NCBI RefSeq assembly: GCF_030684315.1
Contig: NC_081361.1
Location: 16,295,861 to 16,359,860 of the forward strand
Direction: 5' to 3'
Source of the DNA: Stegostoma tigrinum
Lineage: Eukaryota
Length of the DNA: 64,000 nucleotides
The position numbers and the translations under genes are program-made. Position 1 is the first letter of the stretch. Each line of letters begins with the position of its first letter. The notes under the pieces are model-generated. The model saw only the letters and a program-made list of their open reading frames with translations, did not search any database and was not told where the DNA came from. Shown one piece after another: positions 4,553 through 57,420 of this stretch.

Positions 4553-4681
4553 CTCTCTGATGAAGGCTCTAGGTCTGAAAAGTCAGCTTTTGTGCTCCTG
4601 AGATGCTGCTTGGTCAGCTGTGTTTATCCAGCTTCACACTTTGTTATCTTGTATTCTCCAGCATCTGCAGTTCCCATTATC
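4553..4681 (+). mobile_element. Mini-PLE (family A), HHR to 3' tail
   Basis: Starts ctctCTGATGA, ends cccattatc; TSD TTTGAGAAGAAA(A)GAG 4537-4552 / 4682-4696. Confidence 0.9.
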
Positions 4682-4839
4682 TTTGAGAAGAAAGAGGTTG
4701 GTCTGAGACAAGTAGTAATATTTTATCCCTGAGGTTTGGGAAGCTTTTGAATTCTCTGCCACAAAATGATATGGAGGATGTTTTGCAAATGTTTTAGATA
4801 GAGATCGATAGGTTAATAATTACCAATGGCATACAAGGC

Positions 4840-5385
4840 CATAAGACCATAAGACATAGGAGTGGAAGTAAGGCCATTTGGCCCATCAAGTCCACTCCGC
4901 CATTAAATCATGGCTGATGGGCATTTCAACTCCACTTCCCTGCACTCTCCCCGTAGCCCTTGATTCCTTCTGAGATCAAGAATTTGTCGATCTCTGCCTT
5001 GAAGGCATCCAACGTCCCCGTCTCCACTGCACTCCGTGGCAATGAGTTCCACAAGCCCACCACTCTCTGGCTGAAGAAATGTCGTCTCATTTCAGTTTTA
5101 AATTTACCCCCTCTAATTTTAAGGCTGTGCCCACAGGTCCTAGTCTCCCCGCCTAACGGAAACAACTTCCTAGCGTCCACCCCTTCTAAGCCATACATTA
5201 TCTTGTAAGTTTCTGTTAGATCTCCCCTCAACCTTCTAAACTCTAATGAGTACAATCCCAGGATCCTTAGCCGTTCATCATACGTTAAACCTACCATTCC
5301 AGGGATCATCCGTGTGAATCTCCGCTGGACACGCTCCAGGGCTAGTATGCCCTTCCTGCGATGTGGGGCCCAAAATTGGACACAG
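4840..5385 (-). mobile_element. Young 5'-truncated CR1 LINE with open ORF2 C-terminus
   Basis: ORF 4926-5309 MIPGMVGLTYDERLRILGLYSLEFRRLRGDL...FFSQRVVGLWNSLP; (cataagac)n tail. Confidence 0.92.
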
Positions 5386-5705
5386 AGGTTAAAGGGGATG
5401 GGGCTGAGGTGACTCTTGTGTGCATGCTCCCTCAGAAAGTAAGCTCCAAGTCATTTTCAATTCCTTCCTGGAACAATTGAGAAAAAGAAATTTCCAAGCA
5501 ACACCCAGAAATCTAAGGTGCTCTTCCAACAAGCTCGCACAGCAAAACACCTCCCTCAACCCCTGTCACTTAAAATAAGCATTTTGGAAAATGTCCATTT
5601 TCTTTATCTTGGAAGCATCCTGTCAGTAAAAGCAGACATGAATAATGAAATTCATCACCACCTCCCAGCCAGCTCAGCCTTCAGTAAACTGCCGCCTCTT
5701 CATTT

Positions 5706-6021
5706 GGTGTGGCACAGTGGTTAGCATGGCTGCCTCACAGCTCCAGGGACCCGGGTTCGATTCCAGCATCAGGCGACTGTCTGTTTGGAGTTTGCACATT
5801 CTCCCCGTGTCTTCATGGGTTTCCTCCAAGTGCTCCAGTTTCTTCCCACACTCCAAAGATGTGCAGGCTAGGTGGGTTGGCCATGCCAAATTGCCAGAAA
5901 ATGTTCAGGGATGTGTAGATTAGATGGGTTATGGGGGGATGGGCCTGGGTAGGAAGCTCTGAGGTTTGGTGTGGACTTGTTGGGCCAAAAAGCCTGTTTC
6001 TACATGGTAGGGATTCTACGG
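5706..6021 (+). mobile_element. V-SINE (HE1-like)
   Basis: tRNA head ggcacagtggttagc..gggttcgattcc; V-domain tggagtttgcacattctccccgtgtc; CR1-type tail. Confidence 0.9.
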
Positions 6022-6427
6022 TATAAAGAGTATTTGAGAATAGCGATCACTGACCAAAGACTAACATCATGGTTTATACATCCACATGTTTCAGAGTCTT
6101 GAACAATCTGCAGCAGCTACTTCAAAACACAGGAGAAATACCTCTAGTGGTGTCCTTATAAAAGCCTCCAGACCTGATAAAAAAAAAGAGCAGCCCATCA
6201 ACAGAAAACTCTCCCAATCTGACCAGTGAATCGCTGAAAAACAATTCCAAAGGACTGGAACATGTCAGACAGCAGACTCCTGACGCAATTGCCCAACTCG
6301 GAATTTGACTGCGGAAGAAGACTTCCAGAAGAACAGCTGAACTGCTTTAGGGTTGGCCCCAAAGTATTCTTGAAGAAGTCAAACATTCCCAGTTAGTCAC
6401 GGTTTAAGACCAATCAAAATGGGAGGA

Positions 6428-6531
6428 ACCAAAACAAAGCTGCTGGAAAAGCTCAGCAGATCTGGCAGCATCTGTGGGGAGAAAACAGAGTTAATGTTTC
6501 AGGTCTGGTAACCCTTCCTCAGAACATTTCC
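6428..6531 (-). mobile_element. Mini-PLE (family C), tail-less, ending at HHR
   Basis: gctgctggaaaagctcagcag..gtttcaggtctggtaacccttcctcagaac; TSD TCAAAAT(G/A)GGAGGA 6414-6427 / 6532-6545. Confidence 0.8.
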
Positions 6532-7707
6532 TCAAAATAGGAGGAGGTTTATTTGGGAGGAAGCTGAACACAAGAAAGACTATGTTGGATGGGTGGAGAA
6601 GCAAGGTTGGAGCTTTGGAGGAAGTGTTCAAACCTCCAACTAAACCTATCTACTTGATTCTTAAAGATCCCCGTGCCCCGTATGTTAAAGATGCTGCAAA
6701 TTATGCATTGCCGTATCAGCCATCAAACCAGAGTGGAATCAAATCATACTCAATCTTGAGGGATTGCCTAAATGGTAGGAAGACTGTGTTAAAGAATTGA
6801 AATTCTTGCTGTGGCCAGTGCCATAATTATGATCTTGGGTCTTAGTGTGGTCAGTGGAGAATGCTACCTCTGAAAATCTCAGAATTCCCAGCTCATCTAG
6901 ATCAAATAATCTCTGAGGCAAGGAAAGTGGCACAAAACATATTGATGGAAACAAAAACGTGGAAAATTACTCCTGAACCATCTTAAACAATCAAAACTAG
7001 TCCAGGAAATCACATTGCCTATGGTATATTTCACAAGACTGCCATGTCTGATGTTACCCAAAAACAGCCTCAGCTTTAGTTGAACAAACAGAAGAGTGCT
7101 ACGCAATATCAACAGACCTCCAATAAACATCCATAGGATATTTTAATGCCATGTTACGCATGTCCTAGTTTCTCTTGTTTTGACGGATAACATAAGCATT
7201 GCTGCGTAAGGTAAAACCACTCTATGGATGCAAAAATGCACATTGTTTATCTATCCGAGAACTTTTCCTGTGAGTACATTCTGGAATGCTGTCTGCCCTA
7301 GGATATTGCTTCACCAGCCCGGTTATGGATCTTTGGTTATAGAATTACAATAAAATATGGCACATATACCACAGGGATCGCTCCTGCTCCGTAAACCATG
7401 TCTTTAATTGTGGGTTTGATATCTTGGTTGTCAAATATTCATATCCCTCACTCGGCTGACAGGTGAGCTGTGATGTTGAAAGTGATGATTAATTTCAAGA
7501 CTACAGGTATCATTGTCAAGAGGAGCTCACAAACTACAGAAAAGCGCTGCATTTTCCCAGGATCTCACTGTTGATCTGGATCAATGGGGAATGGCATGGG
7601 TGAAATGAAGTCTTCTTGTGTTCAAGCACTCCTGAAGTCAAGGAAGATAGGACAGCATTTGTAAAGGGAGCTTTACAATTGGAGGAGGACTTCACCTTTT
7701 CAAGCCA

Positions 7708-7815
7708 TATAGTCATAGAGATGCACAGCACGGAAGCAGACCATTTGTTCCAACTCGTCCATGCTGACCAGATATCCTAAATAAATCGAGTCCCGTTTGC
7801 CAGCATTTGGCCCAA
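7708..7815 (-). mobile_element. CR1 3'UTR fragment
   Basis: catagagatgcacagcacggaagcagacc..gccagcatttggccc. Confidence 0.75.
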
Positions 7816-10252
7816 TTTCTCATACTCTACAGGGCAAATGTCAATGATGATCTGGAATTCCATTTCTGGTGAGACCATACACAATGGCATCTGTATCATC
7901 TCTACTGAAACTCAATGATTGAGGTAGGAGCAACTTTGTTTTGGACTGAAAGTGTTATAGGTAGATTAGTTTCTTCTCTATATCTCTGTGCCTGAGGTGC
8001 GGTACAATATAACAATGAAGAAATGGAGGTGAAGTGAAGCTTGCTGCAGCCCTGTTTGGTTCCAGTTTTCAGTCAGATTGGACTTGTTGTGTTTTCCTTG
8101 CTGAGGATCCAGGTTTGCATATCATTGCAGAGCAGATAAAGGAAATTTTGACAACTTGCAGTCAGCAAACCACTGGCAAAGTATCATGAGTGGTTCCTTC
8201 ATGCTATCCTGTAAATCTATAGGAAAGAAAGTCGTTCCAACAGCAACATCCTCTGCCAAAACAACTTGCCAAGCATTTAGATGCTACTCACTCAAAAACT
8301 GCTCTAGTTGAGTGCAACATGCCATTCCCATGCCTAACATCAAGATTGCTGAAGTGCTGCCCTGTGCAGAACTTGGTTATGCTCAGGAGGTTCCCAGAAG
8401 GATACCTTTAGGAATGCTCTCAATGCATTTTGGCCCACTTTCTCATACACTTGTCCTGTAGTGTGTAAAAAGGTGGGCCAAATGCTGGCAAAATGGGGGT
8501 AGGTTTATTCAGGATATCTGATTGGCATGGGCGAGTTGGACCAAATGGTCTGTACTCACTGCTGACTCATGGGGGGCCAAATTGTAGAACGTTCATTTTG
8601 AAAGGAATTGCAGAGGCACAGTAAAGAACATTAAAAACCCTGTGACACATCACATTCTAACACACCCTCCAAATACCAAGTGCTCCACATGTGACAGAGT
8701 CTACAGATTGTACTGTGGCCTCACCAGCCATCTCAGAGCTCATCAGATCAGAGTGGAAGCAAGCCTTCCTTAACGCCAAGAGACTATCACCGAAGGAGCA
8801 GAATAAGACAATAGAAAACAAAGAGACTGTTCGCTCACTTATCTGTTTATCTGTTTCCCTTGTAGGATACATACATGTATAGCTTTTGATCTACCCATAT
8901 GCGTGGCATAACAGTTTTCAAATGCAAACACCATGAACCAAATAAGCCCCAAAATCTTTCGGAACTGAGAAAAAGCCAGACGCAATTAAATTCAGAAATC
9001 CTGCTGGTCGATCTCAATAATGTACAATGGGTTAAACTCGAGTTGAAGGTCAATAACTGGTTGGCTGGCACAGGCGACGGTTTAAGTTGTCAGATTGAGA
9101 AATCCTACAGTGCCCAAAAGACAGTGTAATTGCAGGGAGCTTGATGCATGTGGTGAAGGAATAACATTGGGAAGGACAGCTGAAGTACGGTGGAGATAAC
9201 CGAGAATTACAACACCATTCTGCTGCGTAATTAAAGTGCCCAACTGAAAGAAACAGAGGAGAGACATCTGTCAAGAAGTTTGACAAAGAGTTTAAAAGTT
9301 TCTCTGCTGTGTGAGCATGACAGACAGATTGCGAAACTCAGATTCAGCAGATCCTTATTGGGAATGACAGTGGCGTGATAGAACAGTTCTTAGTCATCTG
9401 ACTGTACCGGCATGCTGTTGGTCACCTGTTTTGAATGCTCATGCAGGGGGAGGGGCAGTTTAGAAACTGGTGAAGTTTATGCTGGCTTCTACTGAGGGGC
9501 ATTGAGCTTCCTAATAACTCAAGAGAGCTTGGCCTGCACCTCAGAAGGACAGGGAGCAAGGTTGCTGATCATGAAATATACAGAGCAAGTTTCTAGACAG
9601 CCCACATGCCTAGTTAAGTGAATAATATTATGTGATCTGATGGTATTGATGTACACCTGAATGCTCCCAATTTCCACAATGGTATTATACTTTATCAGTC
9701 ACTTCCAGAAGCAGAAATTGCAGCTCTGCCTTTCATTAAGCTCAAATATTTCTTTTTTTTTAATGAAATATTCAACTCGGCCAATTAACTGTGAATTTTA
9801 AATGGATCTTAAGATCCCTCAAGTGACTACCGTTAGTAATTTGGACTTGAACTTCAGTTTCCTTTCGATTGCAGTTATCCTATGTATGAAACTTTGAAGA
9901 GAAAATATTAATAAAGAGAAATGGAAATACTCAGTAGAGCAGGCCTTGTACCAGAGAGTAGATTTCCATTAGCACTTCACAGTCCAGGTGGAATTGACAT
10001 TGGTTCTCAAGCATATTGAGTTGCCTGAGACCTGAGATGAATGTTGTGACCACAGTTTGAGCATTAGAACATAAGAAAATATTAACAAACAAAAAAAACA
10101 TCGACCACCAGTTTCACTTGTAACACTTATTATGTGTATCTTGTCCTGCCTTGGGCTGAATAATTCCAGCATCTGGAAGTGATGATCCCTGAGGTAATAT
10201 TTCTAATGTGTGGACACCACTGTTCAGGGAAGCAAACATTTTCTCCTAAATT

Positions 10253-11040
10253 AAAACGAAAATAACTGTGGATGCTGTAAATCAGAAACAAAAATAAATG
10301 TTGCTGCGAAAGCTCAGCAGGTCGACTATCATCAATGAAGGGAAATCAGAATTAACATTTCAGGTCTGATGGCCTTTCCTCAGAACTGATAGTAGTTAGG
10401 CAATGTCAGTTTTATATGCGGAAGATAGGGTAGAGGGATGGGGTTAGGAGTAAACGATAGGTGTGGAGAGAGTCCAAATTGAGAGAAGAACAGTTGGACA
10501 GACAAAACAGTGGATAATGATCTTGCTGGGACGGTGAATAGATTTTAAGGAAGACTGTTAGTGACTAACAATAGGCAGTGCAAAATAGCAGACTATGTGA
10601 CAACAGGGCCCTGAGTGTGGGATAGGGGCTAGCACATGGGAGAGTTTAGGCCCTAAAATTATTGAACTCGATATTGAGTCCAGAAAGCTGCAGGGTACCC
10701 AAATGGAAAATGAGGTGATGTTCTTCCAACTTGCACTGAGCTTAACTGGAACAATGCAGCAAGCCTAAGACAGTGATGTTGGCCAGGGAACAGGGTGATA
10801 TATCAAAGTTGCTGGTAACTGGAAGATCAGGGTATATTTTGCAAACAGTATGTAGAAGTTCTGTAAAGTGGTCACCCAGTCTACACTTTCTTTTCCAGTG
10901 CAGAGGACACCACATTGAGCAGTGAATGTAGTGGACTAGATTGTGGGAAGTGCAGGTAAAGTACAGCTTCACCTGTTTGGGCCCTTGGGTATTGGGGGGG
11001 GGGGTGTGGGAAATGGGCAGGTGTTACACCTTTGGCAGTT
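10253..11040 (-). mobile_element. Degenerate PLE (family C) 3' part with GIY-YIG remnant
   Basis: ORF 10742-10972 FTCTSHNLVHYIHCS...KCRLGDHFTELL parallels the 62-kb GIY-YIG; HHR remnant at about 10350-10387. Confidence 0.85.
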
Positions 11041-11995
11041 CTTTCCTGTTGACTTTATCATGACTCACTGAGATAGCACACTTGAAATCAGGTCCTACTA
11101 TTCCAGGAGTCATTACAACATTGTTGTTGCTTAAAATAAATACCCAAAATCCCCAGCTCTCTGATGTTCCAACCTAGGTTCTGCATTAATGGGACCCATA
11201 GCTACAAAAATATCGTCCACAATATGTGTCAAATTCTTTGCTTTCCAAACATGTACACATCCTTCTGAATCTCTGGATTTTAATGCAGTTATTCCTCATT
11301 TCAGTCCACAGTTCTATAAAAAAGACACAAAAATGAAAAGGCACGGCCTTCACAATTTGCTCAGAGTTCAACCATGTTGGGAAGGAGACGATCATTCACC
11401 CCAGATGGCAGGATTTGTGAATGGAGGTTCCAGAACTTAGAAAGGTCAATATTCCCAAGATAAATAACAAACTGGAAATTGTGTGAACCTTGGAAATGCC
11501 ACTGTTGAAAATGAGATTTTACATGTTTTAATGCCAGCCAAGAAAATCAGGGAGAGATGTCATTTTGAATATTTAGTGAATATGAGATCATTGGGGAATA
11601 GTGTTTAAATTCAGAATAACTAGAGGTTTGTAGCTCACTTAGCTGGAGCAAAAAATTCCAATATCGTTAGACATAGCCCAATTGTGATGCAAGAACTAAT
11701 ACTGGGGACTCACATTTAATAACTTGTGTGAAATCTCAAAATGATCCAGTTGACATTGTCCGATAGTTTTGCAAGGAGTTTCAAACGTAACTTTCAAAAA
11801 TGTGCTGGTAACACAAAGAAGAGTAAGCTCTTTGCACATTTCTCCAGACCTTATGCCTTCCTATTAATTGTTGACTTTTTCCAATTTCAAGTTGTTTAAA
11901 GCATCATTCTCTTTCTCCCTAAACATCCTTCAATCACCTCCTTCAGGAAGTTCTCTGGTCTTAGAGAATGATGATTTCAAAATTGAAGATATCAT

Positions 11996-12113
11996 AGATA
12001 ATGGGAACTGCAGATGCTGGAGAATCCAAGATAACAAAGTGTGAAGCTGAATGAACACAGCAGGCCAAGCAGCATCTCTGGAGCACAAAAGCTGACGTTT
12101 CGGGCCGTGACCC
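11996..12113 (-). mobile_element. Mini-PLE (family A), truncated within HHR stem II
   Basis: agataatgggaactgcagatgctgg...gctgacgtttcgggccgtgaccc; no clear TSD. Confidence 0.9.
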
Positions 12114-17254: not shown

Positions 17255-17368
17255 CAACACAAACAGAAATTTTTGGAAAAGCTCAGCAGGTCTTGCAGCA
17301 TCTGTGGAGAGAAATTGAGTAAACAGAGTGATCTGAGGAAGGGTCACTCGACCTGAAACGCAAACTCC
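17255..17368. mobile_element. Mini-PLE (family C) with inverted HHR segment
   Basis: Minus-strand 3' end followed by plus-strand ctgaggaagggtcactcgacctgaaacg. Confidence 0.7.
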
Positions 17369-17435: not shown

Positions 17436-17563
17436 AGAGATAGTCGGAACAGCCGATGCTGGAGTCTGAGATGACAAGGTGTGGAGCTGGAGGAACACAG
17501 CAGGCCAGGCAGCATCAGAGCAGCAGGAAAGCTGACGTTTCCGGTCTGGACACTTCTTCAGAA
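17436..17563 (-). mobile_element. Mini-PLE (older family A variant) ending just past the HHR
   Basis: TSD ATTTACCCCATG 17424-17435 / 17564-17575; CTGAAGA core variant. Confidence 0.9.
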
Positions 17564-18887: not shown

Positions 18888-18967
18888 GAGTAGCATGGTG
18901 ACTCAGTGGTTAGCACTGCTGCCTCATAACGCCAAGGACCCACATTTGATTCCAGAGTAAGAGGCAG
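18888..18967 (+). mobile_element. V-SINE head fragment
   Basis: gcatggtgactcagtggttagcactgctgcctca. Confidence 0.65.
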
Positions 18968-20192: not shown

Positions 20193-20574
20193 TGTAATAA
20201 GTGAACCTCATAGAATATGAGTGATAATGGGAACTGCAGATGCTGGAGAATCCAAGATAACAAAGTGTGAAGCTGGGTGAAAACAGCAGGCCAAGCAGCA
20301 TCTCAGGAGCACAAAAGCTTTTGTGCTCCTGAGATGCTGCTTGGCCTGCTGTGTTCATCCAGCTTCACACTTTCTCATAGAATATGAGTTTCTGTTTGGG
20401 GCTGTTAATCTGGTCCAATGAGATACCACAGGCTGACTGATATTAGGAGGAGTGTAGAGGTTCTGTTCACTTTGAGAGCTGGCTCTGGTGGGGCTGGTTG
20501 AGTGTTAAGGACTCTTCATGTGGAAATAAAAGATAATTTGTTGACAGGTTACCAGAATCTGTGAAGTTATTTCA
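20193..20574 (+). mobile_element. Short solo-LTR-like element, copy 2, interrupted by a mini-PLE
   Basis: TGTAAT...GTTATTTCA with ccaat and aataaa; similar to copies at 1790 and 26146. Confidence 0.65.
20223..20373 (-). mobile_element. Mini-PLE palindrome with no spacer
   Basis: TSD CTCATAGAATATGAGT 20207-20222 / 20374-20389; symmetry axis gcacaaaag|cttttgtgc at 20317/20318. Confidence 0.93.
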
Positions 20575-20692: not shown

Positions 20693-21124
20693 TAATAATA
20701 AAGTATGAAGCTGGATGAACACAGCAGGCCAAGCAGCATCTCAGGAGCACAAAAGCTGACTTTTCGGGCCTAGACCCTTCATCAGAGAGGGGGATGGGGT
20801 GAGGGTTCTGGAATAAATAGGGAGAGAGGGGGAGGCAGACCGAAGATGGAGAGAAAAGAAGATAGGTGGAGAGTAGAGTATAGGTGGGGAGGTAGGGAGG
20901 GGATAGGTCAGTCCAGGGAAGACGGACAGGTCAAGGAGGTGGGATGAGGTTAGTAGGTCGGAAATGGAGGTGCGGCTTGGGGCGGGAGGACGGGATGGAT
21001 GAGAGGAAGAACAGGTTAGGGAGGCAGAGACAGGCTGGGCTGGTTTTGGGATGCAGTGGGGGGAGCGGAAGAGCTGGGCTGGTTGTGTGGTGTAGTGGGG
21101 GGAGGGGACGAACTGGGCTGGTTT
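20693..21124 (-). mobile_element. PLE family A pLTR, tail-less
   Basis: Highly similar to 2924-3345; HHR at about 20757-20786. Confidence 0.9.
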
Positions 21125-21487
21125 ATAATGTTCCATCAAGGATTTCCAGTGTACAAATAGTGTGGCTGAGGCACAAAGTAACTTCACCATTGTCCCAGAA
21201 AACATCCAAGTCAGCTCTAGTTCACATTTGCTTTTGGTACCTGTTGTGTAATATAATTCGGTAGGTTCGCGACTCTGTTAAAATCACATTCTCTGGCCTA
21301 TAACAATCAAGCAGCAAAAACCTGAAAAAATCAAAATTTCAGCTTTAAATGATGCAAATTCAAGCAATTTTATCTCCCATCAATTTGCTGCAACATTCAG
21401 CAAGAGTTTTCAGTTGTGTTGAGAAAAGACTGTTCAATTCATTCCTCTTGTGGCATTCTGGGTAGAATACAACTCTGGTTACATAGG

Positions 21488-22688: not shown

Positions 22689-22871
22689 AGAGATAATGGG
22701 AACTGCAGATCCTGGAGAATCTGAGATAACAAGGTATGGAGCTGGATGAACACAACAGACCAAGTAGCATCTTAGGAGCAGGAAAGCTGACGTTTCGCGC
22801 CTCGACCCTTCATCAGACTCTAGGCTGGAAACATCAGCTTTCCTGCTCCTAAGACGCTGCTTGGCCTGCTG
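22689..22871 (-). mobile_element. Mini-PLE hairpin
   Basis: TSD TATTACCTTTATT 22676-22688 / 22872-22884; inversion junction at the HHR (about 22817). Confidence 0.9.
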
Positions 22872-24002: not shown

Positions 24003-24179
24003 GACAAAGTGTGGAGCTGGATGAACACAGCAGGCCAAGCAGCACCTAAGGAGCTCAAAATGTGTCTAGGCCCGAAACGTCAGCTTTTGTGCTCTCAAGA
24101 TGCTGCCTGGCCTGGTGTGTTCATCCAGCTCCACACTTTGCTATCTTGGATTCTCCAGCATCTGCATTTCCCATTATCT
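24003..24179 (+). mobile_element. Mini-PLE hairpin
   Basis: Inverted arm 24003-24060, main arm from HHR stem II to tail; degenerate TSD atgaatg(t/c)t... Confidence 0.88.
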
Positions 24180-28660: not shown

Positions 28661-28786
28661 GGAGATAATGGGAACTGCAGATGCTGGAGAATCCAAGATA
28701 ATAAAGTGTGAAGCTGGATGAACACAGCAGGCCAAGCAACATCTCAGGAGCACAAAAGCTGACGTTTCGGGCCTAGAACCTTCATA
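28661..28786 (-). mobile_element. Mini-PLE (family A) ending inside the HHR core
   Basis: gagataatgggaac...gggcctagaaccttcat. Confidence 0.9.
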
Positions 28787-35261: not shown

Positions 35262-35491
35262 GATAACACAGTGTGGACCTGGAGGAACACAGCAAGCCAG
35301 GGAGCATCAGGGGAGCAGGAAAGCTGACGTTTCAGATAGGGACCCTTCTTCAATAATGGGGATTTCTGAAGAAGGGCCCTGGTCCAAGCTTTCCTGCTCC
35401 CCTGATGCTGCCTAGCCTGCTGTTTTCTTCTAGCTCCACAGTCACAGTGTGTTACCTCAGACTCCAGCATCAAAGGTTCTTACTATCACTG
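35262..35491 (+). mobile_element. Mini-PLE hairpin (older variant)
   Basis: TSD ACTGAGGAA(C/T)TGTA 35248-35261 / 35492-35505; both arms start at CTGAAGA. Confidence 0.88.
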
Positions 35492-35960
35492 ACTGAGGAA
35501 TTGTATCCTTCCTACTCTAGTCTAAGTCGATGTCTTTTTTTTGTGTGTTATCATCTCCATAGAGACTAATAATCTAAAAACCGATGAATGTCCTAGTGAT
35601 AGTTGGCATTATCAAAGGATGAGATTTCACACATTAAGACTTTACTGTAACAAACACACTAGTATCAACTTGGATCAAACATTAGTTATATGCAAATAAT
35701 ACTCCAAACAAAACAAAAGGATAATTATCATTGTATTAAAGAACTAGCGCAAAATTTTTGCCATGCGTCACACTTCTACAGATATGTATCATTACAAGAA
35801 CTCTTCAGCAGACTCAAATCTCTGGTTCATGCAAGTTTGATACTTTCATTGTCTTTCAAAAGTCACTTCCTGCAACCTGACTCTCACTTTCACTAGCAGA
35901 GCCCACCTCAATGACTCCTTCCACTCTAAATGAATTATGAATCATGAAAAATGAGCCATT

Positions 35961-36283
35961 GAGCGTGGTGGCTCAGTGGTTTGCAATGCTGCCTCACAAC
36001 ACTAGGTTCGATGCCACCCTTGGGCAACTGCCTGTGTGGAGTTTGCACATTCTCCCCATGCCTGTTTGGGTTTTCTCTGCGTGCTCCGGTTTGCTTTCAC
36101 AGTCCAAAGACGCATCGGTTAGGGTGGATTTGTCATGCTGTAGTGTCCAGGGAGGTGCAGGCAAGGTGGATTGGCTGTGACAAATGCAGAGATATGGCAG
36201 GGGGCTGAGTGAGATGCTCTTTGGGAACTGACGTGAACTTGATAGGCGAAATGGCTTGATTTAATACTGTAGGAATTCCATGA
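35961..36283 (+). mobile_element. V-SINE
   Basis: gtggctcagtggtt..tgtgtggagtttgcacattctcccc. Confidence 0.85.
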
Positions 36284-36357: not shown

Positions 36358-36573
36358 GAGAGAATAGGAACTGCAGATGCTGGAGAATCTGAGATAACAA
36401 GGTGGAGAGCTGGATGAACACAGCAGGCCAAACAGCATTAGAGCAGCAGGGAAGTTGATGTTTTAGCTCTAAACTCTTCTTCAGAAATGGGTCTAGACCC
36501 GAAACGTCAGGTTTCCTGCTCCTCTGATGCTGTTGGGTCTGCTGTGTTCATCCAGCTCCATACTTTGTTATTT
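36358..36573 (-). mobile_element. Mini-PLE hairpin
   Basis: TSD CTACTTGTTTGTTA 36344-36357 / 36574-36587; junction cttcttcagaaa|tgggtctagacccgaaacgtc. Confidence 0.9.
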
Positions 36574-38621: not shown

Positions 38622-38714
38622 CTCTGATGAAGGGTCGAGGCCGGAAACATCAGCTTTTGTGCTCCTCAGACGCAGCTTGGCCTGCTGTGTTCATCCAGCT
38701 TCACACTTTGTTAT
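38622..38714 (+). mobile_element. Mini-PLE, tail-less single arm starting at the HHR
   Basis: TSD CTCTACTTTCCT 38610-38621 / 38715-38726. Confidence 0.9.
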
Positions 38715-39019: not shown

Positions 39020-39362
39020 CTTGTTACACTTGCTGTCACCATGTCCTCCCTCCCTTCCCCCCACCCCAGTGGGACTATCTGTTCTTTCCAGTCTGGCAGT
39101 TAGACACACTATTATTCACCCATTCTCATATTCTAGTCACTGTCAATCTGCACTATCAATATCTTTTCTCCCCCAGCTCTCTACACTCCGACACACTGTC
39201 GGCCCCGAACTATAGCATAAATGCTGCCCCTTCCACACTTCACACCAGCTCTGATGAAGAGTCATCTAGACTCGAAATGCTAGCTTGCTCTCTAGCCATG
39301 CATGCTGCCTGACCATTTGTTATTTTCAGCAATGATTCCAGCATCTGCAGGAATTTGCACCT
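39020..39362 (+). mobile_element. PLE pLTR (older family) with HHR
   Basis: agct-CTGATGA-agagtc atcta gactc-GAAA-tgct-agct at about 39247-39285; tail ccagcatctgcag. Confidence 0.8.
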
Positions 39363-40672: not shown

Positions 40673-40799
40673 AGATAATGGGAACTGCAGATGCTGGAGA
40701 ATCCAAGATAACAAAGTGTGGAGCTGGATGAACACAGCAGGCCAAGCAGCATCTTAGGAGCACAAAAGCTGACGTTTCGGGCCTAGACTCTTCATCAGA
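40673..40799 (-). mobile_element. Mini-PLE ending at the HHR, with junction filler
   Basis: TSD TACTCTGGCAGCAG 40659-40672 / 40824-40837. Confidence 0.9.
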
Positions 40800-42143
40800 A
40801 AAAGTGTCTACTCTATAAATGTCTACTCTGGCAGCAGGATGCTTTTTAGGTTTTGCTGAATCTGATTCAGCTCTCAGGTAACATTGTTTAAAGGGGATAA
40901 ATGGACTCAAAGCATCACATGATGTTGTCATTGCCAAGGAAATAACTAGGCTGGGTCTCAGCACAAGAAGACCACTAAAAATGTGCCTTCAAAGGCAGAG
41001 ATGACCACAATATCTATTAGGATTTATCGAACTAAGTTTCAGGTATGGTGTGTAAAGATGGCTGGTAAGCCCAGTTTGATCATTAAAAAAAGCTCCTTTG
41101 CATGTTAGACATGCCTATTGTTAGTATAGAGGATGTGCTTGTTGCTCTGGATTTGCAAGGCTAAACTTTCCTGTTGGCTGATACGTGGCTGTGTTCTGTT
41201 CAGAGGAGAAGGTGCATTTGTGGATAATACTGCACCATGTTGAATATACTGTGTAATGTATTGCTTCTGAAACAACATTGAAACTCTGAAGCTCTTTAGT
41301 GTGGCTTTCAAAGTGTTCTTGAAATATTGACTTTTCCAGGCTTCCTGTGAACCCTTAACTGTAGAGTAATTAACAAGCCAATGAGCATGCGTATAAAGAG
41401 CTACATCATGATGATGCCATGGGTACAGGAGAATTGAGGTGTATTGAAGAAAAGGAGGAGTGATTCTGATTTCATGCTTAACCATTTGAACAAAAGATTA
41501 GTTAGAAAGATATTTACTCCCAACAAGCTCTCTTATGAAGTGCAAGGGGCTCAACATCTTCAAAGATGCCCCAACATAAACTCACGAAAGCAGAGCTCGT
41601 TTGGCAAGTGTTCACCAAGGATTCTGGCAATGTGTCTTCTCCTGCATGGATACCTATACTCACCAGCAATTTTGAAAGTCTATTCTTTGAAAGGAATAGA
41701 AACAACTTGTTGGGATGAGAATTTCTTCACTGACACCACGAATGCACTTTGAACTGCATGGTCTTTGCTTGTTGTCATTCTCCTCTCTTTTGCCTGGTTA
41801 TTTTCCCATCTGTAACAATATTGACTGAAAGCTAACTCCGGTCAGTTCTCCGCTTCCAGCTACATGAGCCATTAACCACAGCGCAGTACATTTATTCTGG
41901 GACATTCACCCTGAGCTCAAGTTACAAATATTGGCATTGTGCATTTCTTGTTTCTCAATACCACGATTTCAAAATGCATCCTGGTCCAGCACACTTTGGC
42001 AGACTCTATCCTACATGACAATATTGGGCTTTATTTGATAAATGCTGTCCCATCAACAGAAATACAATTCTTGGAATCACATAACAGAGTGTAACTGTAT
42101 TGACAGTGATTCATTTTTCTTACTGAAGTGACTGAGCATAGTG

Positions 42144-47329: not shown

Positions 47330-49065
47330 GAACATGAGGTTGATGTTAGGCTTGCTGTTCCAGTAAAATAACACTCCTACAGGCTTAATCCTCTCAAAGC
47401 AGTGCAGATTGAGATGGAAGTGATGGCCTAAGAGTATATCATAGAGCTAAGTCAAAGTGTGATATTCACTGATTGTGTAGGTTTCCAAGTCTGATGATGT
47501 TCAGCAGTCTCGCATAGATTATTGGAAGGTCAACGCTGTGACAAAATCAGACTAATTCTCAAATCCAAGGCTGGAGGACTGTGTGGAAAAAGTAGTACAA
47601 GCGATTTGCATCACAAAGTTAGACTTACTTCATGGTTACCGGCAAGAGCCTTTGTCAGAGAGAGCGAAAGAAGTTTCTGCTTTTATAACCCCAAATGGGG
47701 TGTATCAAGATAAAGTAATGCCCTTTGGACTGAAAAACACACCAGCTACTTTTCAAAGATATAGAGATCCTGGTGTTGGATTGGAATGGACAAGGTCAGA
47801 AATCACATTGCAACAGGTAACAGTCCAACAGCTTCATTTGAAAACACAGCTTTTGGAGCCCTACAGAGATAGTGAGAACAGCCGATGCTGGATTCAGAGA
47901 CAAAACAGTGTGGAGCTGGAAGAACACAACAGGCCAGGTAGCACCAGAGGAACAGGAAAGTTAGCTTTTCGGGCTGGGACTCTTCTTCAGAAAATGAAGA
48001 AAAATTGTGAAAATGAAATTTCCTGTAGGGTCGCAAACTGAAATGCCAATTTTCGTGCTCCTCTGATGCTGCCTGGCCTGCTGTGTTCCTCCAGCTCCAC
48101 ACTGTGTTGTCTTTTTCAGAGCTTTACTCCTTCTTTCAAGGGCTTGTGAACAGAGTTGTGGCAGAATTGAGAAATTGTGCAGCCTACATAGATGACTTGG
48201 TGGTCTTTAGCCATTCGTGGAAAGGTCACATGGAGCATTTGGCAAAGCTCTACTCAAAACTACAGAAGGCAATGTTGATCATAAACTTGGCAGAAATAGA
48301 ATTCTCAAAGGCAGGAGTGGTGTTCTTAATGCACAACATTGGGCACTTGTCAGATGACATCAAGGAAAATGAAGACAAAGGCCATGAAGGAATTTCCAAG
48401 ACCATCCTCAAAGACTACACACTGTTTTCCCTGTAGCATTTTACAAACACTAAATTCAAACATCCTGCCTTCCAATCCTCAAGTATGCTATGCATCTATG
48501 CAACACCTCCCCACATAAGAAATTTTTAGGATTGAGCATATTCTGAAGGAAATTTGTACCAAACTTTCGTAGCGTGATGGCACCGTTGATGGATTTGTTA
48601 GAAAAGAACACCAAATTTCAATGAATAGAACAATGCCAGGAGGCATTTGAGAGCTTAAAAGCATTGTTAAGTGCTGCACCTGTTACAGCTAAGCCAAATT
48701 TCTTGAAACCCTCGAAAATCACGATTGCGTAAGCGATATAAATGTTGGAAGTATGTTATCACAGGAGGGTAAGTGAGAAATTGAAAGGCCAATCGATTAG
48801 ATTTCAGAAAAATCTCAATATCCACCAAAAACAATGTTCAACCACTGAAAAAGAGTTATTGAGTTTGGTAATGGCCTTATAACATTTTAATATTTACTTT
48901 GCAAACAATGAGTCGGAGAAAGTTATGTATACCAATCAAATTGCTTTGACATTTCTGGAAAGATTTAAGGACAAGAACAGCATATTATTTCATTGGAGTC
49001 GAATGACACAAGCACTTAATTTATAGACTGAACATGTTGTGGATTATGAAAACGTTATTGCTTTA
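47330..49065 (+). pseudogene. pol: Reverse transcriptase / RNase H remnant
   Basis: ITKLDLLHGYRQ..SAFITPNGVYQDKVMPFGLKNTPATFQ; AAYIDDLVVFS; STTEKELLSLV. Confidence 0.88.
47762..48133 (-). mobile_element. PLE family B 3' end containing a nested family A mini-PLE (47865-48111)
   Basis: agaaatcacattgcaacaggtaacagtccaacagc..gaaaacacagctttt matches 53205-53270; RT frame interrupted at FQ(R)...FQG. Confidence 0.8.
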
Positions 49066-49249: not shown

Positions 49250-49260
49250 AAGGGGGAAAT
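49250..49260 (+). promoter_or_regulatory. Polypurine tract
   Basis: aagggggaaat immediately before the TG of the 3' LTR. Confidence 0.75.
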
Positions 49261-52419: not shown

Positions 52420-53062
52420 TGTTATGGACCAGACAAGACCCGTTAATAATATTTTAAGAAGGTAGCCTTGGCCTACACTTTTCCTTATTTTAAAGTGCTG
52501 TGTTTCAGTTGCAATATGACTGGTCAAACTACCCGGTGTTAAGCAAAACACAATTTATTTACACACTGTAGTTAAAATACAACAAAAGAAAGATAGATTT
52601 AGAAAAACAACTCCATCAGAAAACTTAAATTAATACATACAGGAATGATTTCTAATTAACTATTCCGATCTAGTAATTCCCCACAAATGCACCCCTTGGC
52701 AAAAAGGCAAATGCAAAACATAGATTGCCTCACATGCAACCTGGTAACAGGGAGAGCAAACAAAAATCAAGCGAAACCTCAGAAAGAGTAACAGCCAAGA
52801 GACATTTACTGCAGTTCCCAACCCTATTGAGACTCCAACAGCAAATGATGTTGAATCTCAAAATGAAACAACTAAAAACTAGACACCATATTCTGTGAAA
52901 GCTGGCCACACCCAGCAGCAGGCTGCTTCTATTATTCCAACTTTATCAAAAACCCAAGTCCTCACAAGCAGTTTACTTCACTGGCATTCCAAATAGACGG
53001 CTTGTTACCTCTCTCTTAAAACACCAGGATGAAATAACCTCTCAAGGCCACAGTTCTATTAC
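52420..53062 (-). mobile_element. Probable solo LTR
   Basis: Starts TGTTAT; aatttattt (minus-strand poly(A) signal) as in the Gmr1 LTRs; right end uncertain. Confidence 0.45.
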
Positions 53063-53199
53063 CTGCCTTTCCTTTCCTGTCAGCCCCTCCTTCTGTCTAC
53101 CTCTTCTGTTAATTCCGTATTTATATGGATTTTTAGGTAAATCAACCATTTACATAGATTAGCCTTTTAAATTGAGTCTCACTTGCCTGCCCCACCAGA

Positions 53200-54250
53200 T
53201 TTATTCAGAAGTCAAATGACACTAGGTTACAGTCAACAAGTTTATTTGAAAACACACGAGCTTTCTTAGCTCAGCTCCTTTGTCAACTGCAGTGAAAGAG
53301 GAGAGCACACAGACACATGGTTTATCGTCAGAGAGATCAAGTGCAGAGAGATCAAAAGATCATACAACTGGTGTGAGTGGGGTGTCAGATAATAAACCTC
53401 AAGAGTGATAGATGGCGATTAAGTGTTTATAAAATCAATGTCAGTGCTGTGCTGTCAGACAGTCAGGCAGAGCCATGGGATTATACAAAAGGTGACATCT
53501 CAGGTCAGACACTGAATTGTAGGTGTGAGGCCTTGTTTAAAATCTGTCTCAGAGTTTTAACCTGGAACCAGACTTGTTTTATTCCAAGAATAGCATTTAT
53601 GAGACACCACACTGATTGACTGTGAATACAATTTGTGTGCTTTTTGAACAAAATAGAATATATCTACAGATAATCAAATATCTTGGATGAAATGATTCAC
53701 CCCATAAATTTGTGTGTGTATGAGAGAGAGAGAGAGACAGTGTGTTGAGAGAGAATCTCTGAGAGTGAGTGTATNNNNNNNNNNNNNNNNNNNNNNNNNN
53801 NNNNNNNNNNNNNNNNNNNNNNNNNNNNNNNNNNNNNNNNNNNNNNNNNNNNNNNNNNNNNNNNNNNNNNNNNNNNNNNNNNNNNNNNNNNNNNNNNNNN
53901 NNNNNNNNNNNNNNAGTGTGAGAGCATACATATGTGAGTGTACGTGTGTGTGTGAGAGAACGTAATAAGTAATTCAAAACAGTACCAACAAATAAGGTAA
54001 AGAAATCATAAGAATTTATTGAGGTGATGCTGTCAAAACAAAACAGGAAAGAAGATTTTACAGATACAAGACTTTGTGGTGGGGTCACCATGAATTGCAG
54101 CATGGACTCAAGATAATGGTTGGGGCCATCTTCATAAGTACTGAACTTGGCTATCAGCCTCTGCTTGGCAATTCTGAGTTGATGTATATCTCAGAAGATG
54201 CCTTGGAGGACATTTACTGGAAGATAAGAGGCGAAATGTCCTTGATTGCT
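53200..54250 (-). mobile_element. PLE family B 3' part, spans an assembly gap
   Basis: GIY-YIG C-terminal remnant on the minus strand at about 54100-54250 (AKQRLIAKFSTYEDGPN); degenerate HHR at about 53258-53287. Confidence 0.75.
53775..53914. other. Assembly gap (140 N) within GA/GT microsatellite-rich sequence
   Basis: Directly visible. Confidence 0.99.
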
Positions 54251-54254
54251 AAAT

Positions 54255-54800
54255 AAAAATGAAAAGAACTGCTGATGCTGTAAACCAGGAACAAAAACAG
54301 AAGTTGCTGGAGAAGCTCAACAGGCCTGGCAGCATTTGTGAAGAGGAAATCAGAGTTAATGTTTCGGGTTCAGCGACTCTTCCTCAGTTCTGACTCTTCT
54401 TCAGTGCGGCATCTCATAAATTCCTGTTTTTGGATAAAACAAGCCTAATTCCAGTTTTGAGGGAGGGTCACCGGGCATATCCCACGTAATTGGGGCCCAT
54501 GCAGGTACCCATGGCCAGCCCTCCTCCCTGCAAAAAGTAAGAGAAGTTGAAAGAAAAGTTATTGAGGGCGAGGACAAGCTCATCCAAGCAGAGGACGGTG
54601 ATGGTGGGTGAGGACAGTTCAGGCTTTTCCTCCAGGAAGAGGTGGAAAGCCTTAAGACCATCTTGGTGAAGGATCAGCGTGCAAAGGGATTGCAAGTCCA
54701 TGGTACAGAAGAGGTGGCTGGAGCCTGCAAACTGGAAATTTTGAAACTGGCTTTAAGGATCAGAGGAACAGGACCAGGGGAGAGAAAATCAAGTCAAAAC
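54255..54800 (-). mobile_element. Rearranged PLE (family C): 3' end, short inverted piece, RT fragment
   Basis: ELVLALNNFSFNFSYFLQGGGLAMGTCMGPNY is a PLE RT motif. Confidence 0.82.
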
Positions 54801-56200
54801 AGTTGCCTAATTATTAGTTACTATTATCCGTGTTAACTTTGTGTCCTATATTTGTTCTAATAACTGAATTTGAACTCCGTAGGTGTCACCATGGGACTTG
54901 GAGTTTATGTTGCTGGACTTTTAGTTCAAGCCCTAGGCTCCCTTTTCCATTAATACAATGACTATACTGTCATTTCTTATTGTTATGTAGCTCTTCATTT
55001 GAGATTACATTCGGAGAGTGGAAAATTCACCATCTATGTTCTAATCTTTGCAGCTCATACACTCATCATACAGAGGATAAGAAGAATCTTCTCAAGAGCT
55101 AGTCACATATACAGCGGAATATGAAGTGTATTTTGTTTATTCCTTGAGTTTTAGAGCCACTGTTTTAATGTTATTGGCGCACAATACTTGGGGACAGAAG
55201 AAGGGATGTAATCCATTTACATTCCCCATTCCTGTCCAAGTGAATCACATCAACAAGAGTGCAAAATCAATAGGGCTTTTGTGAAATTGAGTACCTACAA
55301 TGCTGAAATGTGCAGAAAGTAGTTATATTACATCTGGAGCTGTGGGTATGTTACATGCACCCATCAGCTCCCATTACACGGGCTTCTCTTCATCATCTTC
55401 AAAGCTTTAATGATACTATCAGGCTTTGTCTGGTCGCTGTCAAAGTCTCAAATACTGAAAGGAACAATGATCTAAGAAAAATTACAATTATAATAATCCA
55501 TCATTTTCATGCTGAAAAGTATGACATCCCTGAAGAGCGACATTTAAAGTGAACATTTTAAACCTCAAATTGTCAACCATTTTAATTAATCATAAACACA
55601 TTTCCGGTCTAAATTCCAGAAGAAACTGAAAGGGTTTTAACACAATGTATTTTCAGCCCATGCGGATCAGAACTTTTAAGTGCTACCTCAGATTACACTT
55701 TGCTCAAATATACCAGAAAGGGGAGAAAATGGTTTGATCATGCTTTTAGCTCTGTAAGATTGTTGGAACAATTCAGAAAGAATGGAACTTTCTCAAGTTT
55801 TCAACCTCTGATGCTCCCAACCTTTGTTGAAAAATTAGTGTTCAAATGTGAAGTTTCATTTATCCCTCAACTATTTTCTCCATTACCTGCAATTCAAACT
55901 TGTTCCATTTACTTTTATATAATGAAAGCTTGAAAGCTGACTCCATACTTTGTACAACAGCAACACCATGTCAGGGAGAAGATGAGGTAAATTGAAAAGT
56001 AATTTAATTACCTTTAAATTTGGGTTGCAGAAGTCTGATGGCAAAAGTGCAGAGTATTCAAGGAAATAGAGCATGACGGTTTCCAGGATACAAGGATCCT
56101 GAAAAAGAATGTTGGATAAGGGTGTCACAATGTCTCCAAACCTCTGCTTGGAATTTGCCATTTTGATGATAATGCTGCCTTGACGTCCTATGGGACCCGA

Positions 56201-56628
56201 AGGTTGAAGGAATAGCAACTCATATTCCACTTGGGAACTCTGCAGCCCAATGATATCAATGTGGACTTCACACACTTCAAAATCTCCCCTCCCCCAACTG
56301 CTTCCCAAAACCAGCCCAGATCATCTTCGCCTCCCTCTCACCTATCCCCTCCTCCCACCTCAAGCCGCACCTCCATTTCCCACCTACTAACCTTATCCCA
56401 CCTCCTTGACCTGTCCGTCCTCCCCAGACTGACCTATCCCCTCCCCACCTCCCCACCTATACTCCCCTCTCCACCTATCTTCTCCTCTATCTTTCTTTAG
56501 TCCACCTCCCCCTCTCTCCTCATCCCCCCTCTCTGATGAAGGGTCTAGGCCCGAAACATCAGTTTTTGTGCTCCTAAGATGCTGCTTGGCCTGCTGTGTT
56601 CATCCAGCTCCACACTTTGTTATCTTGG
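56201..56628 (+). mobile_element. PLE family A GIY-YIG end plus pLTR, tail-less
   Basis: LGTLQPNDINVDFTHFKISPPP; HHR at about 56534-56561; degenerate TSD gacgtcctatgggac / ggcatcctaaggcac. Confidence 0.9.
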
Positions 56629-56689
56629 CATCCTAAGGCACTGTTTTTGTTTTGGAGAAAAGATTGTGTTTTTTTTCGTATATTCTCAG

Positions 56690-57420
56690 ACTATAAGAAA
56701 GCTGTTGTGAAACTTGAAAGGGTTCAGAAAAGATTTTCAAGGATGTTAGATAACAAGGTGTAGAGTTGGATGAACACAGCAGGCCAAGCAGCATCAGAGG
56801 AGCAGGAAGGCTGACGTTTCAGACCTAGAACCTTCTGCCCAAAATGTCAGCCTTCCTGCTCCTCTGATTCTGCTTGGCCTGCTGTGTTCATCCAGCTCTA
56901 CACCTTCTTATCTCAGTTTCTCCAGCATCTGCAGTTCCTACTATCTCTTTACAAGGATGTTACCAGGGTTGGTGGGCTTGAGTAATGGAGAGAGGCTGAA
57001 TAGGCTTGGGCTATTTTCCCTGGAGCATTGGAGGCTGATGGGTGGCCTTAAAGAGGTCTATAAATCATGAGGGGCATGGACAGGGTGAATAGCCATGGTC
57101 TTTTCCCCAGGATAGAGGAGTCCAAAAGTAGAGGGCATAGGTTTAAGGTGACAAGGGCAAGATTTAAAAGGGACCTATCGTGCAACTTTTTCACACAAAG
57201 GGCAGTAATGTATGGAATGAGCTGCCAGAGAAGGTGGTGGAGGCTGTGCAATTACAACATTTAAAAAGCATCTGGATTGGTATATGAATAGGAAGGGTTT
57301 GGAGGGATATGGGCCAAATGCTGGTAAATGGAACTAGATTGATTTCGAATGTCTGGTCAGAACGGGCAGGTTAGACTGAAGTGTTTGATTCTGTGCTGTA
57401 CATCTCTATGAGTCTAAAAT
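56690..57420 (+). mobile_element. CR1 3' end interrupted by a mini-PLE
   Basis: KLERVQKRF; MRGMDRVNSHGLFPRIEESKSRGHRFKV. Confidence 0.88.
56749..56947 (+). mobile_element. Mini-PLE hairpin
   Basis: TSD TTT(T/A)CAAGGATGTTA 56734-56748 / 56948-56962; junction within HHR stem II. Confidence 0.9.

What the first reader, a model, noticed from the sequence alone, without database searches (positions are those of the whole stretch)
4553..56947. Swarm of ribozyme-bounded mini-Penelope insertions (90-250 bp) with 12-16 bp TSDs
Seen: about 15 tiny PLE insertions (4553, 6428, 11996, 17255, 17436, 20223, 22689, 24003, 28661, 35262, 36358, 38622, 40673, 47865, and 56749). They contain only the hammerhead motif and the ~100 nt downstream of it, as single arms or hairpins. 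Most have clean TSDs. Their 5' ends or inversion junctions fall within the ~35-nt HHR or a few nt upstream, in at least two sequence families and several age classes. Known: PLE pLTRs carry minimal HHRs and insert with inverted pLTRs. Inference: random 5' truncation should not cluster like this. Either the ribozyme or the adjacent C-rich tract defines a minimal mobilisable RNA (a retrozyme/SINE-like non-autonomous unit driven by PLE RT and GIY-YIG), or it is a strong stop/template-switch point for the RT. This is the best candidate for an undescribed system in the window.
Basis: partly seen in the sequence, partly recalled or inferred. Interest (0 to 1): 0.85.

Follow-up and report, generated by a model that had tools for sequence, protein, structure and literature searches.

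The report
Penelope minis copied from transcript start
These tiny insertions are end-pieces of a very abundant Penelope-type jumping gene that stop sharply three to four bases before its ribozyme, often with an extra G, likely because they were copied from the very start of the element's own capped RNA rather than forming a separate mobile element.

Summary
All 15 sites hold short ends of Penelope-like elements (RT + GIY-YIG); 10 of 15 have 12-16 bp TSDs. Positions: 0 = first C of the hammerhead core, cut after +27. Short arms end at a wall at -4/-3, upstream of an intact core: in 1.35 Mb sampled, 26 of 98 young arms end in -13..0 (2 expected). Family 2 shows the same wall, 56 of 82. Genome-wide, 12,119 of 104,276 copies stop matching at -5, 8,100 with G there. 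A TATA-like box lies about 30 nt upstream in both families. Best reading (0.7): the RT primes internally near the transcript's 5' end and runs off the cap. Against: no RNA data; some G's are flank- or arm-templated; a smaller peak sits at the cut (3,544 at +28 vs 756 at +29; half are a palindrome). Minis share alleles with long copies and form no arrays, so they are neither retrozymes nor a SINE. The scan noted similar clustering in other genomes (e1-7858714, e1-7789271).

The parts
4549..4681 (+). Family-1 mini, single arm, 5' end at -4 preceded by G, 3' end with tail (+128); 12-bp TSD
4557..4588 (+). Minimal type I hammerhead motif in that mini (core C at 4557, predicted cut after 4584)
   Evidence: motif scan; activity untested
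6428..6531 (-). Family-2 mini, 5' end at -3, 3' end +97; 14-bp TSD (one mismatch)
11993..12113 (-). Family-1 mini, 5' end about +8, tail present; no TSD found
17256..17367 (.). Family-2 mini hairpin (arm ending near +27 plus a short inverted hammerhead piece); no TSD found
17436..17563 (-). Old family-1 mini, 5' end about -3; 12-bp TSD
20223..20373 (.). Hairpin mini joined at the 4-bp palindrome just after the predicted cut (+28/+28); 16-bp TSD
22689..22871 (.). Hairpin mini (-1/+11); 13-bp TSD
24003..24179 (.). Hairpin mini (+31/+10); degenerate TSD by eye
28661..28785 (-). Family-1 mini, 5' end about +3; no TSD found
35262..35491 (.). Old hairpin mini (-10 / about -3, with an internal deletion); 14-bp TSD
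36358..36573 (.). Old hairpin mini (-7/+8); 14-bp TSD
38622..38714 (+). Family-1 mini without tail (+92), 5' end -3 to -5 (shared bases with TSD); 12-bp TSD
40673..40823 (-). Family-1 mini, 5' end about -4 plus about 22 nt filler; 14-bp TSD
47862..48113 (.). Old hairpin mini with a spacer of about 40 nt; no clear TSD
56749..56947 (.). Old hairpin mini (+5/+16); 15-bp TSD (one mismatch)
54253..54393 (-). Further family-2 mini not in the finding (alignment start -6, tail +133)
2889..3796 (.). Long young hairpin insertion (-330/-356), 908 bp, 15-bp TSD; long-class counterpart
61714..63158 (.). Long young insertion (-1084/-133), 1,445 bp, 15-bp TSD; carries the ORF's C-terminal part with the GIY-YIG region on the minus strand
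63031..63037 (+). TATA-like element at -34; motif starts at -33..-36 in 67 of 80 long arms
   Evidence: promoter function inferred
63061..63061 (+). Position -4: inferred transcription start, where the genome-wide wall of 5' ends lies
   Evidence: inferred
20695..21125 (-). Long family-1 arm (-334..+90)
56195..56632 (+). Long family-1 arm reaching the ORF end
10287..11032 (-). Long family-2 arm with TATAAA at about -33 and initiator-like bases at -6..-1

Best explanation
The minis are 3'-anchored pieces of autonomous Penelope-like elements whose 5' ends pile up 3-4 nt before the hammerhead, likely because the element's reverse transcriptase primes at the internal sites (+92 or +128) near the start of its own capped transcript and runs off the cap. 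SHOWN: two fixed 3' ends 36 nt apart; a wall at -4/-3 in two families and three age classes; G enriched just outside the wall; a TATA-like box about 30 nt upstream; hairpins with one tailed and one untailed arm; TSDs of 12-18 bp. FROM LITERATURE: PLE transcription starts inside the pLTR (PMC2377424); a PLE RT primes internally at two sites, extends both nicked strands and mainly uses uncut RNA (PMC11167929); untemplated 5' G in L1/SVA insertions is attributed to copying the cap (PMC3287187). INFERRED: the start is at -4; a transcript holds the priming sites at its 5' end (giving cDNAs of 96-132 nt) and, if it reads through, again at its 3' end (giving long copies); both nicks of a staggered cut prime a cDNA and the two meet head to head, often trimmed or joined by microhomology, which spreads ends from the wall to about +90. 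Most minis would be dead ends, lacking the TATA-like box and the leader.
For: Young family-1 arms (88% or more identity to natural copy L012; 152 arms in 1.35 Mb): 98 reach 0, 26 end in -13..0, and only 12 of the 72 survivors end in the next 100 nt; 2.0 expected at the upstream rate, P=2e-20. Old short arms measured against old long copies: 35 of 35 examined stop matching between 0 and -4 (3 of the 35 are family-2 cross-matches). Family 2: 56 of 82 arms that reach 0 end in -8..0. Genome-wide exact counts: 104,276 match to -4, 92,157 to -5; 8,100 of the 12,119 lost have G at -5, against about 26% expected. Neighbouring positions: G in 36 of 100 listed rows one base in and in 19 of about 67 true junctions one base out (both by eye). 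Family 2: 3,092 junctions at -4, G in 46 of 100 listed, G in 20 of 100 one base further out (by eye). 9,390 head-to-head junctions; 40 of the first 50 have a spacer of 11 nt or less, none over 18, although 30 was allowed (by eye). TATA-like motif starts at -33..-36 in 67 of 80 long arms; family 2 has TATAAA at -33 in 2 of its 4 reference copies and initiator-like bases with A at -4. A splice-acceptor-like AG lies 19 nt (family 1) versus 9 nt (family 2) from the wall, while the TATA distance is 30 versus 29. One old copy starts at -3 and reads on through tail, leader and ORF start, inside an 11-bp TSD with one mismatch, seen by eye (L035; n=1). 42 of 44 young hairpins have exactly one tailed arm.
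Against: No RNA was seen; the start site and cap are inferred from DNA alone. Many G's are ambiguous: the base at -5 is C, so an inverted arm reaching -5 also gives G; by eye about 51 of the 69 G rows have element-derived flanks, and among flank-only rows G is 18 of 31 (family 2: 28 of 67; tests). In loci fetched for G junctions the G was inside the TSD in L203, L208 and L211 and clearly extra in L202, L212 and L225; many others had no callable TSD or a rearranged upstream. Only about a third of young short arms end at the wall itself (26 of 80); the rest end downstream, which needs the added trimming assumption. A secondary excess sits at the predicted cut: 3,544 junctions at +28 versus 756 at +29. 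The short:long ratio differs between subfamilies (p down to 8e-5), and short arms are slightly closer to each other than to long arms (0.028 vs 0.034). Arm-length concordance in hairpins (23 short-short, 16 long-long, 5 mixed) does not discriminate, because long-long arms also correlate (rho 0.70). Family 1's young start context is pyrimidine-only, unlike a textbook initiator (TCT-type motif, recalled).
Confidence: 0.7

Rival explanations
1. [quoted passage not shown]
For: 3,544 junctions at +28 versus 756 at +29 under matched patterns. Two cDNAs ending at +28 would have self-complementary 3' ends and give exactly the palindromic hairpin seen in 54 of 100 listed rows. Tandem re-starts at +28 are among the listed rows. 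Helices I and II keep pairing across families.
Against: Most short arms keep the whole core upstream of the cut, and the main wall is 31 nt upstream of it. The palindrome pools several junction types and offers microhomology. Among flank-only rows the excess is about 1.9-fold against about 1.2 expected (by eye). The +28 pattern also covers more subfamilies than the -4 pattern. PMC11167929 found no RNA reads at the cut and uncut RNA as the main substrate. Plausible for a minority class only.
Confidence: 0.08
2. RT stalls or switches template at the hammerhead hairpin or the C-rich tract while copying a long RNA.
For: Loss per base is raised over the whole +40..0 stretch (about 0.4-1.5% per nt); the cDNA of the C tract is G-rich.
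Against: Loss drops to about 0.17% per nt beyond -13 although about 400 nt of C-rich 3' UTR follow. Family 2 has the same wall with a different upstream sequence. A hairpin should stop RT at its 3' base, not 4 nt beyond its 5' side. A stall does not predict an extra G at one position.
Confidence: 0.1
3. A dedicated non-autonomous unit (retrozyme- or SINE-like) is transcribed as a short RNA and mobilised in trans; internally deleted donors joining the leader to the pLTR could be its masters.
For: 3 of 269 sampled arms have the leader (about +112..+270) joined directly to the pLTR at about -64 to -46 (L122, two in L137); similar joints appear in DNA contigs. The short:long ratio differs by subfamily.
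Against: The three junctions differ from each other. No allele is private to minis at any of the 12 variable columns, and the four commonest haplotypes hold both classes. No regular tandem arrays. Even with such donors, the mini's 5' end would still be the same transcription start.
Confidence: 0.1
4. Minis are remnants of longer copies after deletion or pLTR recombination, or an alignment artefact of a conserved core.
For: Old subfamilies diverge upstream of the hammerhead, and alignments to the young copy did end early for some old long arms. Minis are enriched in older alleles.
Against: TSDs abut the ends; the wall is base-sharp in young copies matched exactly; old short arms share no upstream sequence with old long copies; G enrichment is position-specific.
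Confidence: 0.02

Closest known systems
5'-truncated insertions of endonuclease-positive Penelope-like elements with inverted pLTR and 30-40 bp tail (PMC8557442, PMC3846280)
   Same: Single ORF with RT and C-terminal GIY-YIG; minimal hammerhead in the pLTR; inverted 5' copy; tail on one arm; TSDs.
   Different: The passages I saw treat truncation as variable. Here about 45% of young insertions (44 of 97) form a separate short class with a base-sharp wall and an extra G.
PAc (Anolis Poseidon) internal initiation of reverse transcription (PMC11167929)
   Same: Two priming sites just downstream of the hammerhead, both strands extended, uncut RNA as template; shortening the RNA's 5' end shortens the product in vitro.
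   Different: Shown in vitro for another clade; the parts I read report no genomic class of run-off minis, start site or cap-derived G. Supplementary Fig. S2 was not seen and may bear on this.
Animal non-LTR retrozymes (PMC7229834; bioRxiv 10.64898/2026.07.22.740005)
   Same: Short, non-coding, hammerhead-bearing, pLTR-related, dependent on PLE enzymes; dispersed monomers exist.
   Different: Retrozymes are defined as tandem units with two or more hammerheads giving circular RNA. These minis are single or head-to-head, end at the PLE priming sites and start upstream of the cut.
Full-length L1/SVA insertions with untemplated 5' G (PMC3287187)
   Same: Extra G at a fixed 5' end, read as copying of the cap.
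   Different: There the product is the full element; here internal priming would make the run-off product only 96-132 nt.
D. virilis Penelope promoter in the pLTR (PMC2377424)
   Same: Transcription starts inside the pLTR, upstream of the tail.
   Different: That promoter is internal and TATA-less, with an intron before the hammerhead (PMC4209133); here a TATA-like box lies upstream and the start would coincide with the first base of helix I.

Membership tests
EN+ Penelope-like element (parent) | Single ORF with RT and C-terminal GIY-YIG endonuclease | tested here: met
   L012 open frame of 1,088 codons; RVT_1 E=1.4e-5 and GIY-YIG E=2.5e-4, both just under Pfam's curated cut-offs; Atlas 0.98 to RT/HTH_animal/GIY-YIG clusters
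EN+ Penelope-like element (parent) | Minimal type I hammerhead in the pLTR | tested here: met
   Motif scan 101 vs 3 shuffled; helix II 5 bp, helix I 2 bp (family 1) or 4 bp (family 2); Rfam no hit
EN+ Penelope-like element (parent) | 30-40 bp tail on one end and an inverted 5' copy | tested here: met
   3' ends at about +92 and +128; 42 of 44 young hairpins have one tailed arm
Neptune/Nematis clades | Zn-finger-like motif between RT and endonuclease | tested here: met
   Cys-x4-Cys-x2-Cys seen by eye in the translation; feature as stated in PMC8557442
Neptune/Nematis clades | RT phylogeny places it in the clade | not tested
   No reference proteins fetched; the clade name is provisional
Non-LTR retrozyme | Tandem units with two or more hammerheads | tested here: not met
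   10 irregular close same-strand pairs and no regular array among 270 arms
Non-LTR retrozyme | Unit RNA defined by ribozyme cuts | tested here: not met
   Main wall at -4/-3; only a secondary, ambiguous excess at +28
Non-LTR retrozyme | Circular RNA and self-cleavage | not testable with these tools
   Needs RNA or bench assays
SINE-like independent family | Own lineage with diagnostic variants absent from the autonomous partner | tested here: not met
   All 12 variable columns have both alleles in short and long arms (29 short, 49 long); frequencies differ
SINE-like independent family | Promoter carried inside the unit | tested here: inconclusive
   The TATA-like box lies outside the minis; downstream promoter elements were not tested
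Capped-transcript run-off product | Fixed 5' end with an untemplated G | tested here: met
   part of the G's are arm- or target-templated
Capped-transcript run-off product | Capped RNA starting at that base | not testable with these tools
   Needs CAGE or RACE

The most novel reading that the evidence does not exclude
Penelope-like RT makes a strong-stop-like cDNA by priming on the 5' copy of its own capped RNA, and these run-offs integrate by the hundred thousand. The promoter puts the first transcribed base at the first base of hammerhead helix I in unrelated families, and the excess of ends at +28 is a genomic footprint of minimal hammerheads cutting in the germ line; leader-pLTR deletion donors then form a true non-autonomous class.
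Probability: 0.25. Interest if true: 0.78.

Novelty: new variant of a known kind. Interest (0 to 1): 0.52.

Why it matters
How PLEs transpose in vivo and what their minimal hammerheads do are open questions. If the reading holds, the genome records the element's start site, capping and internal priming at base resolution over tens of thousands of events. It would explain the many lone minimal hammerheads in animal genomes (noted in PMC4209133) as by-products rather than a ribozyme-driven family, show that most templates are uncut, and give one sharp coordinate (+28) at which to test cleavage in vivo. Scaling the sample (173 short family-1 arms in 1.35 Mb) suggests several hundred thousand minis in this 3.2-Gb genome; the blocks were hand-placed, so this is rough.

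Tried and rejected
Rfam at E up to 1: no hammerhead family; only sub-threshold microRNA-type and similar hits, mostly on hairpins. Folding of four stretches: no stability beyond shuffles (z -0.43 to 0.46); uninformative for a dimer-dependent motif. Long-range TSD search without an anchor: too many chance hits, replaced by anchored searches. Alignment of old arms to the young copy: rejected as a breakpoint measure because upstream divergence ends alignments early; redone against old natural copies. The C14 block holds a segmental triplicate and was cut to its first 50 kb; the C5 block has no arms; window arms and edge-cut arms were left out of the counts. Sequencing runs: no RNA holder listed; contigs of two runs of one sample (kind not on record) were laid and cannot show starts. 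PDB sequence search: no match. Splice-acceptor reading of the wall: rejected because the bases before -4 are not AG and the AG-to-wall distance differs between families. Hairpin arm concordance: real but not discriminating. Literature searches for a cap-G or start-site wall in PLE minis listed nothing that reports it; subscription papers, Repbase and bioRxiv supplements were not searchable.


Full report
Coordinates. Position 0 is the first C of the hammerhead core in a natural young copy (L012, base 6110). The predicted cut is between +27 and +28. An arm is one stretch of element sequence; a hairpin is two arms head to head. Counts marked 'by eye' were read from the first 100 rows a search listed (contig C1 onward); whole-genome totals are the tool's.

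1. Observation. All 15 sites hold hammerhead-region pieces. Ten have 12-16 bp TSDs scoring 11 or more, against 1 of 420 control pairings; 24003 is degenerate; four have none. Inner ends in the window lie between -10 and +31. The window also holds five long arms or insertions and one more mini that the finding omits. Rfam misses the motif; a motif scan gives 101 hits against 3 in a shuffle.

2. Parent element. The window lies in a 3.2-Gb genome with a huge young family (259,228 first-look candidates, the listed matches 97-100% identical). [quoted passage not shown] This is an endonuclease-positive Penelope-like element, provisionally of the Neptune/Nematis type (no tree made). Beyond +128 lies a leader that runs into the ORF (L011, L035). 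Insertions end at about +92 or +128 (family 2: about +96 or +133). Of 44 young hairpins, 42 have one arm of each kind and 32 have TSDs of 12-18 bp. This matches the tail and inverted copy described for PLEs (PMC8557442, PMC3846280: passages) and two-site internal priming on both nicked strands (PMC11167929: parts 1-2 of 4).

3. I fetched 14 blocks of 100 kb at round coordinates and kept 1.35 Mb after cutting a segmental triplicate; window arms were excluded. Of 152 arms at 88% identity or more, 98 reach 0, 26 end within -13..0, and 12 of the 72 survivors end in the next 100 nt; 2.0 were expected at the upstream rate (P=2e-20). Old arms could fake this through upstream divergence, and some did; measured against old long copies, 35 of 35 examined stop between 0 and -4 (three are family-2 cross-matches). 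Family 2, on its own natural references, has 56 of 82 arms ending in -8..0. Short arms also end downstream, at about 0.45% per nt over +1..+92. So the pattern is a wall with a downstream shoulder, not a peak inside the ribozyme.

4. Genome-wide, at base resolution. 104,276 copies match exactly to -4 and 92,157 to -5, a loss of 11.6% at one base; one base in, the loss is 7,219 of 111,495. Both include point changes in long copies. With a filter that drops most long copies there are 6,639 junctions at -4 and 3,876 at -5, about a third of the latter still long-copy variants by eye. Of 9,390 head-to-head junctions, 40 of the first 50 have spacers of 11 nt or less and none exceeds 18 (by eye).

5. 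The extra G. 8,100 of the 12,119 have G at -5, against about 26% from base composition, 36 of 100 one base in and 19 of about 67 one base out (by eye). Family 2: 3,092 junctions, G 46, A 33, T 21 of 100; G 20 of 100 one base further out (by eye). Caveats: the reference base at -5 is C, so an inverted arm reaching -5 also yields G, and many rows have element-derived flanks; on flank-only rows G is 18 of 31 and 28 of 67 (P=2e-4 and 5e-3). In 36 fetched loci (35 distinct; 20 picked as looking non-hairpin, 16 the first G matches) the G was inside the TSD in L203, L208 and L211, extra in L202, L212 and L225, and unresolved or in rearranged junctions in the rest. A cDNA ending in an added C that anneals to a G would give both outcomes. 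Untemplated 5' G in L1/SVA is attributed to the cap (PMC3287187: passages).

6. Promoter anatomy. A TATA-like motif starts at -33..-36 in 67 of 80 long family-1 arms, across about 25% divergence. Long family-2 copies have TATAAA or a one-base variant at -33 and initiator-like bases with A at -4; old family 1 also has A at -4, young family 1 a pyrimidine run (initiator and TCT consensus recalled, from no call). In family 2, helix I is four base pairs and begins exactly at -4. D. virilis Penelope starts inside its pLTR (PMC2377424: passages and section 15), though from a TATA-less promoter. One old copy begins at -3 and continues through tail, leader and ORF start.

7. Mechanism. Shown: fixed 3' ends, wall, G bias, motif spacing, tail asymmetry, TSDs. 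Inferred: transcription starts at -4; the RT primes at +92 or +128 on the 5' copy and runs off the cap, or primes on the 3' copy and gives long insertions; two cDNAs from the two nicks join head to head, with trimming and microhomology spreading the ends; some jump on to other parts of the RNA (L035, L214, L216, L230, L232). 44 of 97 young insertions are short. Confidence 0.7.

8. Results against. No RNA evidence. Only 26 of 80 young short arms end at the wall. There is an excess at the cut: 3,544 at +28 against 756 at +29; 54 of 100 rows are the palindromic hairpin, which cleavage or plain microhomology would both give, and flank-only rows are about 1.9-fold up against about 1.2 expected (by eye). 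I could not run a control palindrome. Short arms are richer in older alleles. Three of 269 arms show a leader-pLTR join that could be a non-autonomous donor.

9. Comparison. Works like ordinary PLE insertion and belongs to it. Not a non-LTR retrozyme as defined (tandem units with two or more hammerheads; PMC7229834: passages; bioRxiv 10.64898/2026.07.22.740005: parts 1-3 of 5, supplements not seen): no arrays in 270 arms. Not an independent SINE-like family: no private alleles in 29 short against 49 long arms. PMC4209133 (parts 1-2 of 4) already notes many lone minimal hammerheads, probably truncated PLEs. I found no report of a start-site wall with extra G in searches (listings only, apart from the papers named); the library lacks most subscription papers. 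Two earlier scan notes on other genomes describe such minis, one with the hint that the template begins before the hammerhead (seen after my reading was written down).

10. Verdict. A real, strong pattern; a new variant of a known kind; interest 0.52. It is a readable record of how a PLE transcript is copied, not a new mobile system, unless the +28 class or the deleted donors prove real.

Noticed in passing
window 47556-48436: Two + strand frames with RT-like motifs of an LTR-retrotransposon kind (by eye), interrupted by the hairpin mini at 47862-48113.
   Followed up: no
window 39245-39290: A third hammerhead family: helix II with an A-U pair where the others have G-C, and a possible 4-bp helix I; few relatives in the sample.
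   Followed up: partly
L011 2023-10000 (G000:C38): Tandem array of about 2.6-kb units in which the leader is joined in frame to the RT region, dropping the ORF's N-terminal part (frames of 752-755 codons).
   Followed up: partly
L122 about 1960-2290; L137 6387-6700 and 7320-7505: Leader sequence joined directly to the pLTR at about -64 to -46: units of about 300 nt, each with a different junction; similar joints in laid contigs. Unexplained.
   Followed up: partly
L214, L216, L230, L232: A -4 mini preceded on the same strand by other parts of the element (hammerhead to +26, ORF start, 3' UTR, a second mini), suggesting template jumps after run-off.
   Followed up: partly
window 5709-5867, 18898-18955, 35960-36118, 60402-60560 and inverted copies: A dispersed family of about 150-190 nt that looks like a tRNA-derived SINE (label recalled).
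   Followed up: no
window 4926-5450: Minus-strand frame resembling the C-terminus of a LINE ORF2 (by eye).
   Followed up: no
window 56564-56809: Two separate insertions form a tail-to-tail inverted pair that draws sub-threshold Rfam microRNA hits.
   Followed up: no
L101-L110 (G000:C14) and L041-L050 (G000:C5): The C14 block repeats three times at about 24-25 kb; the C5 block is 50% G+C and holds no family-1 arm.
   Followed up: no
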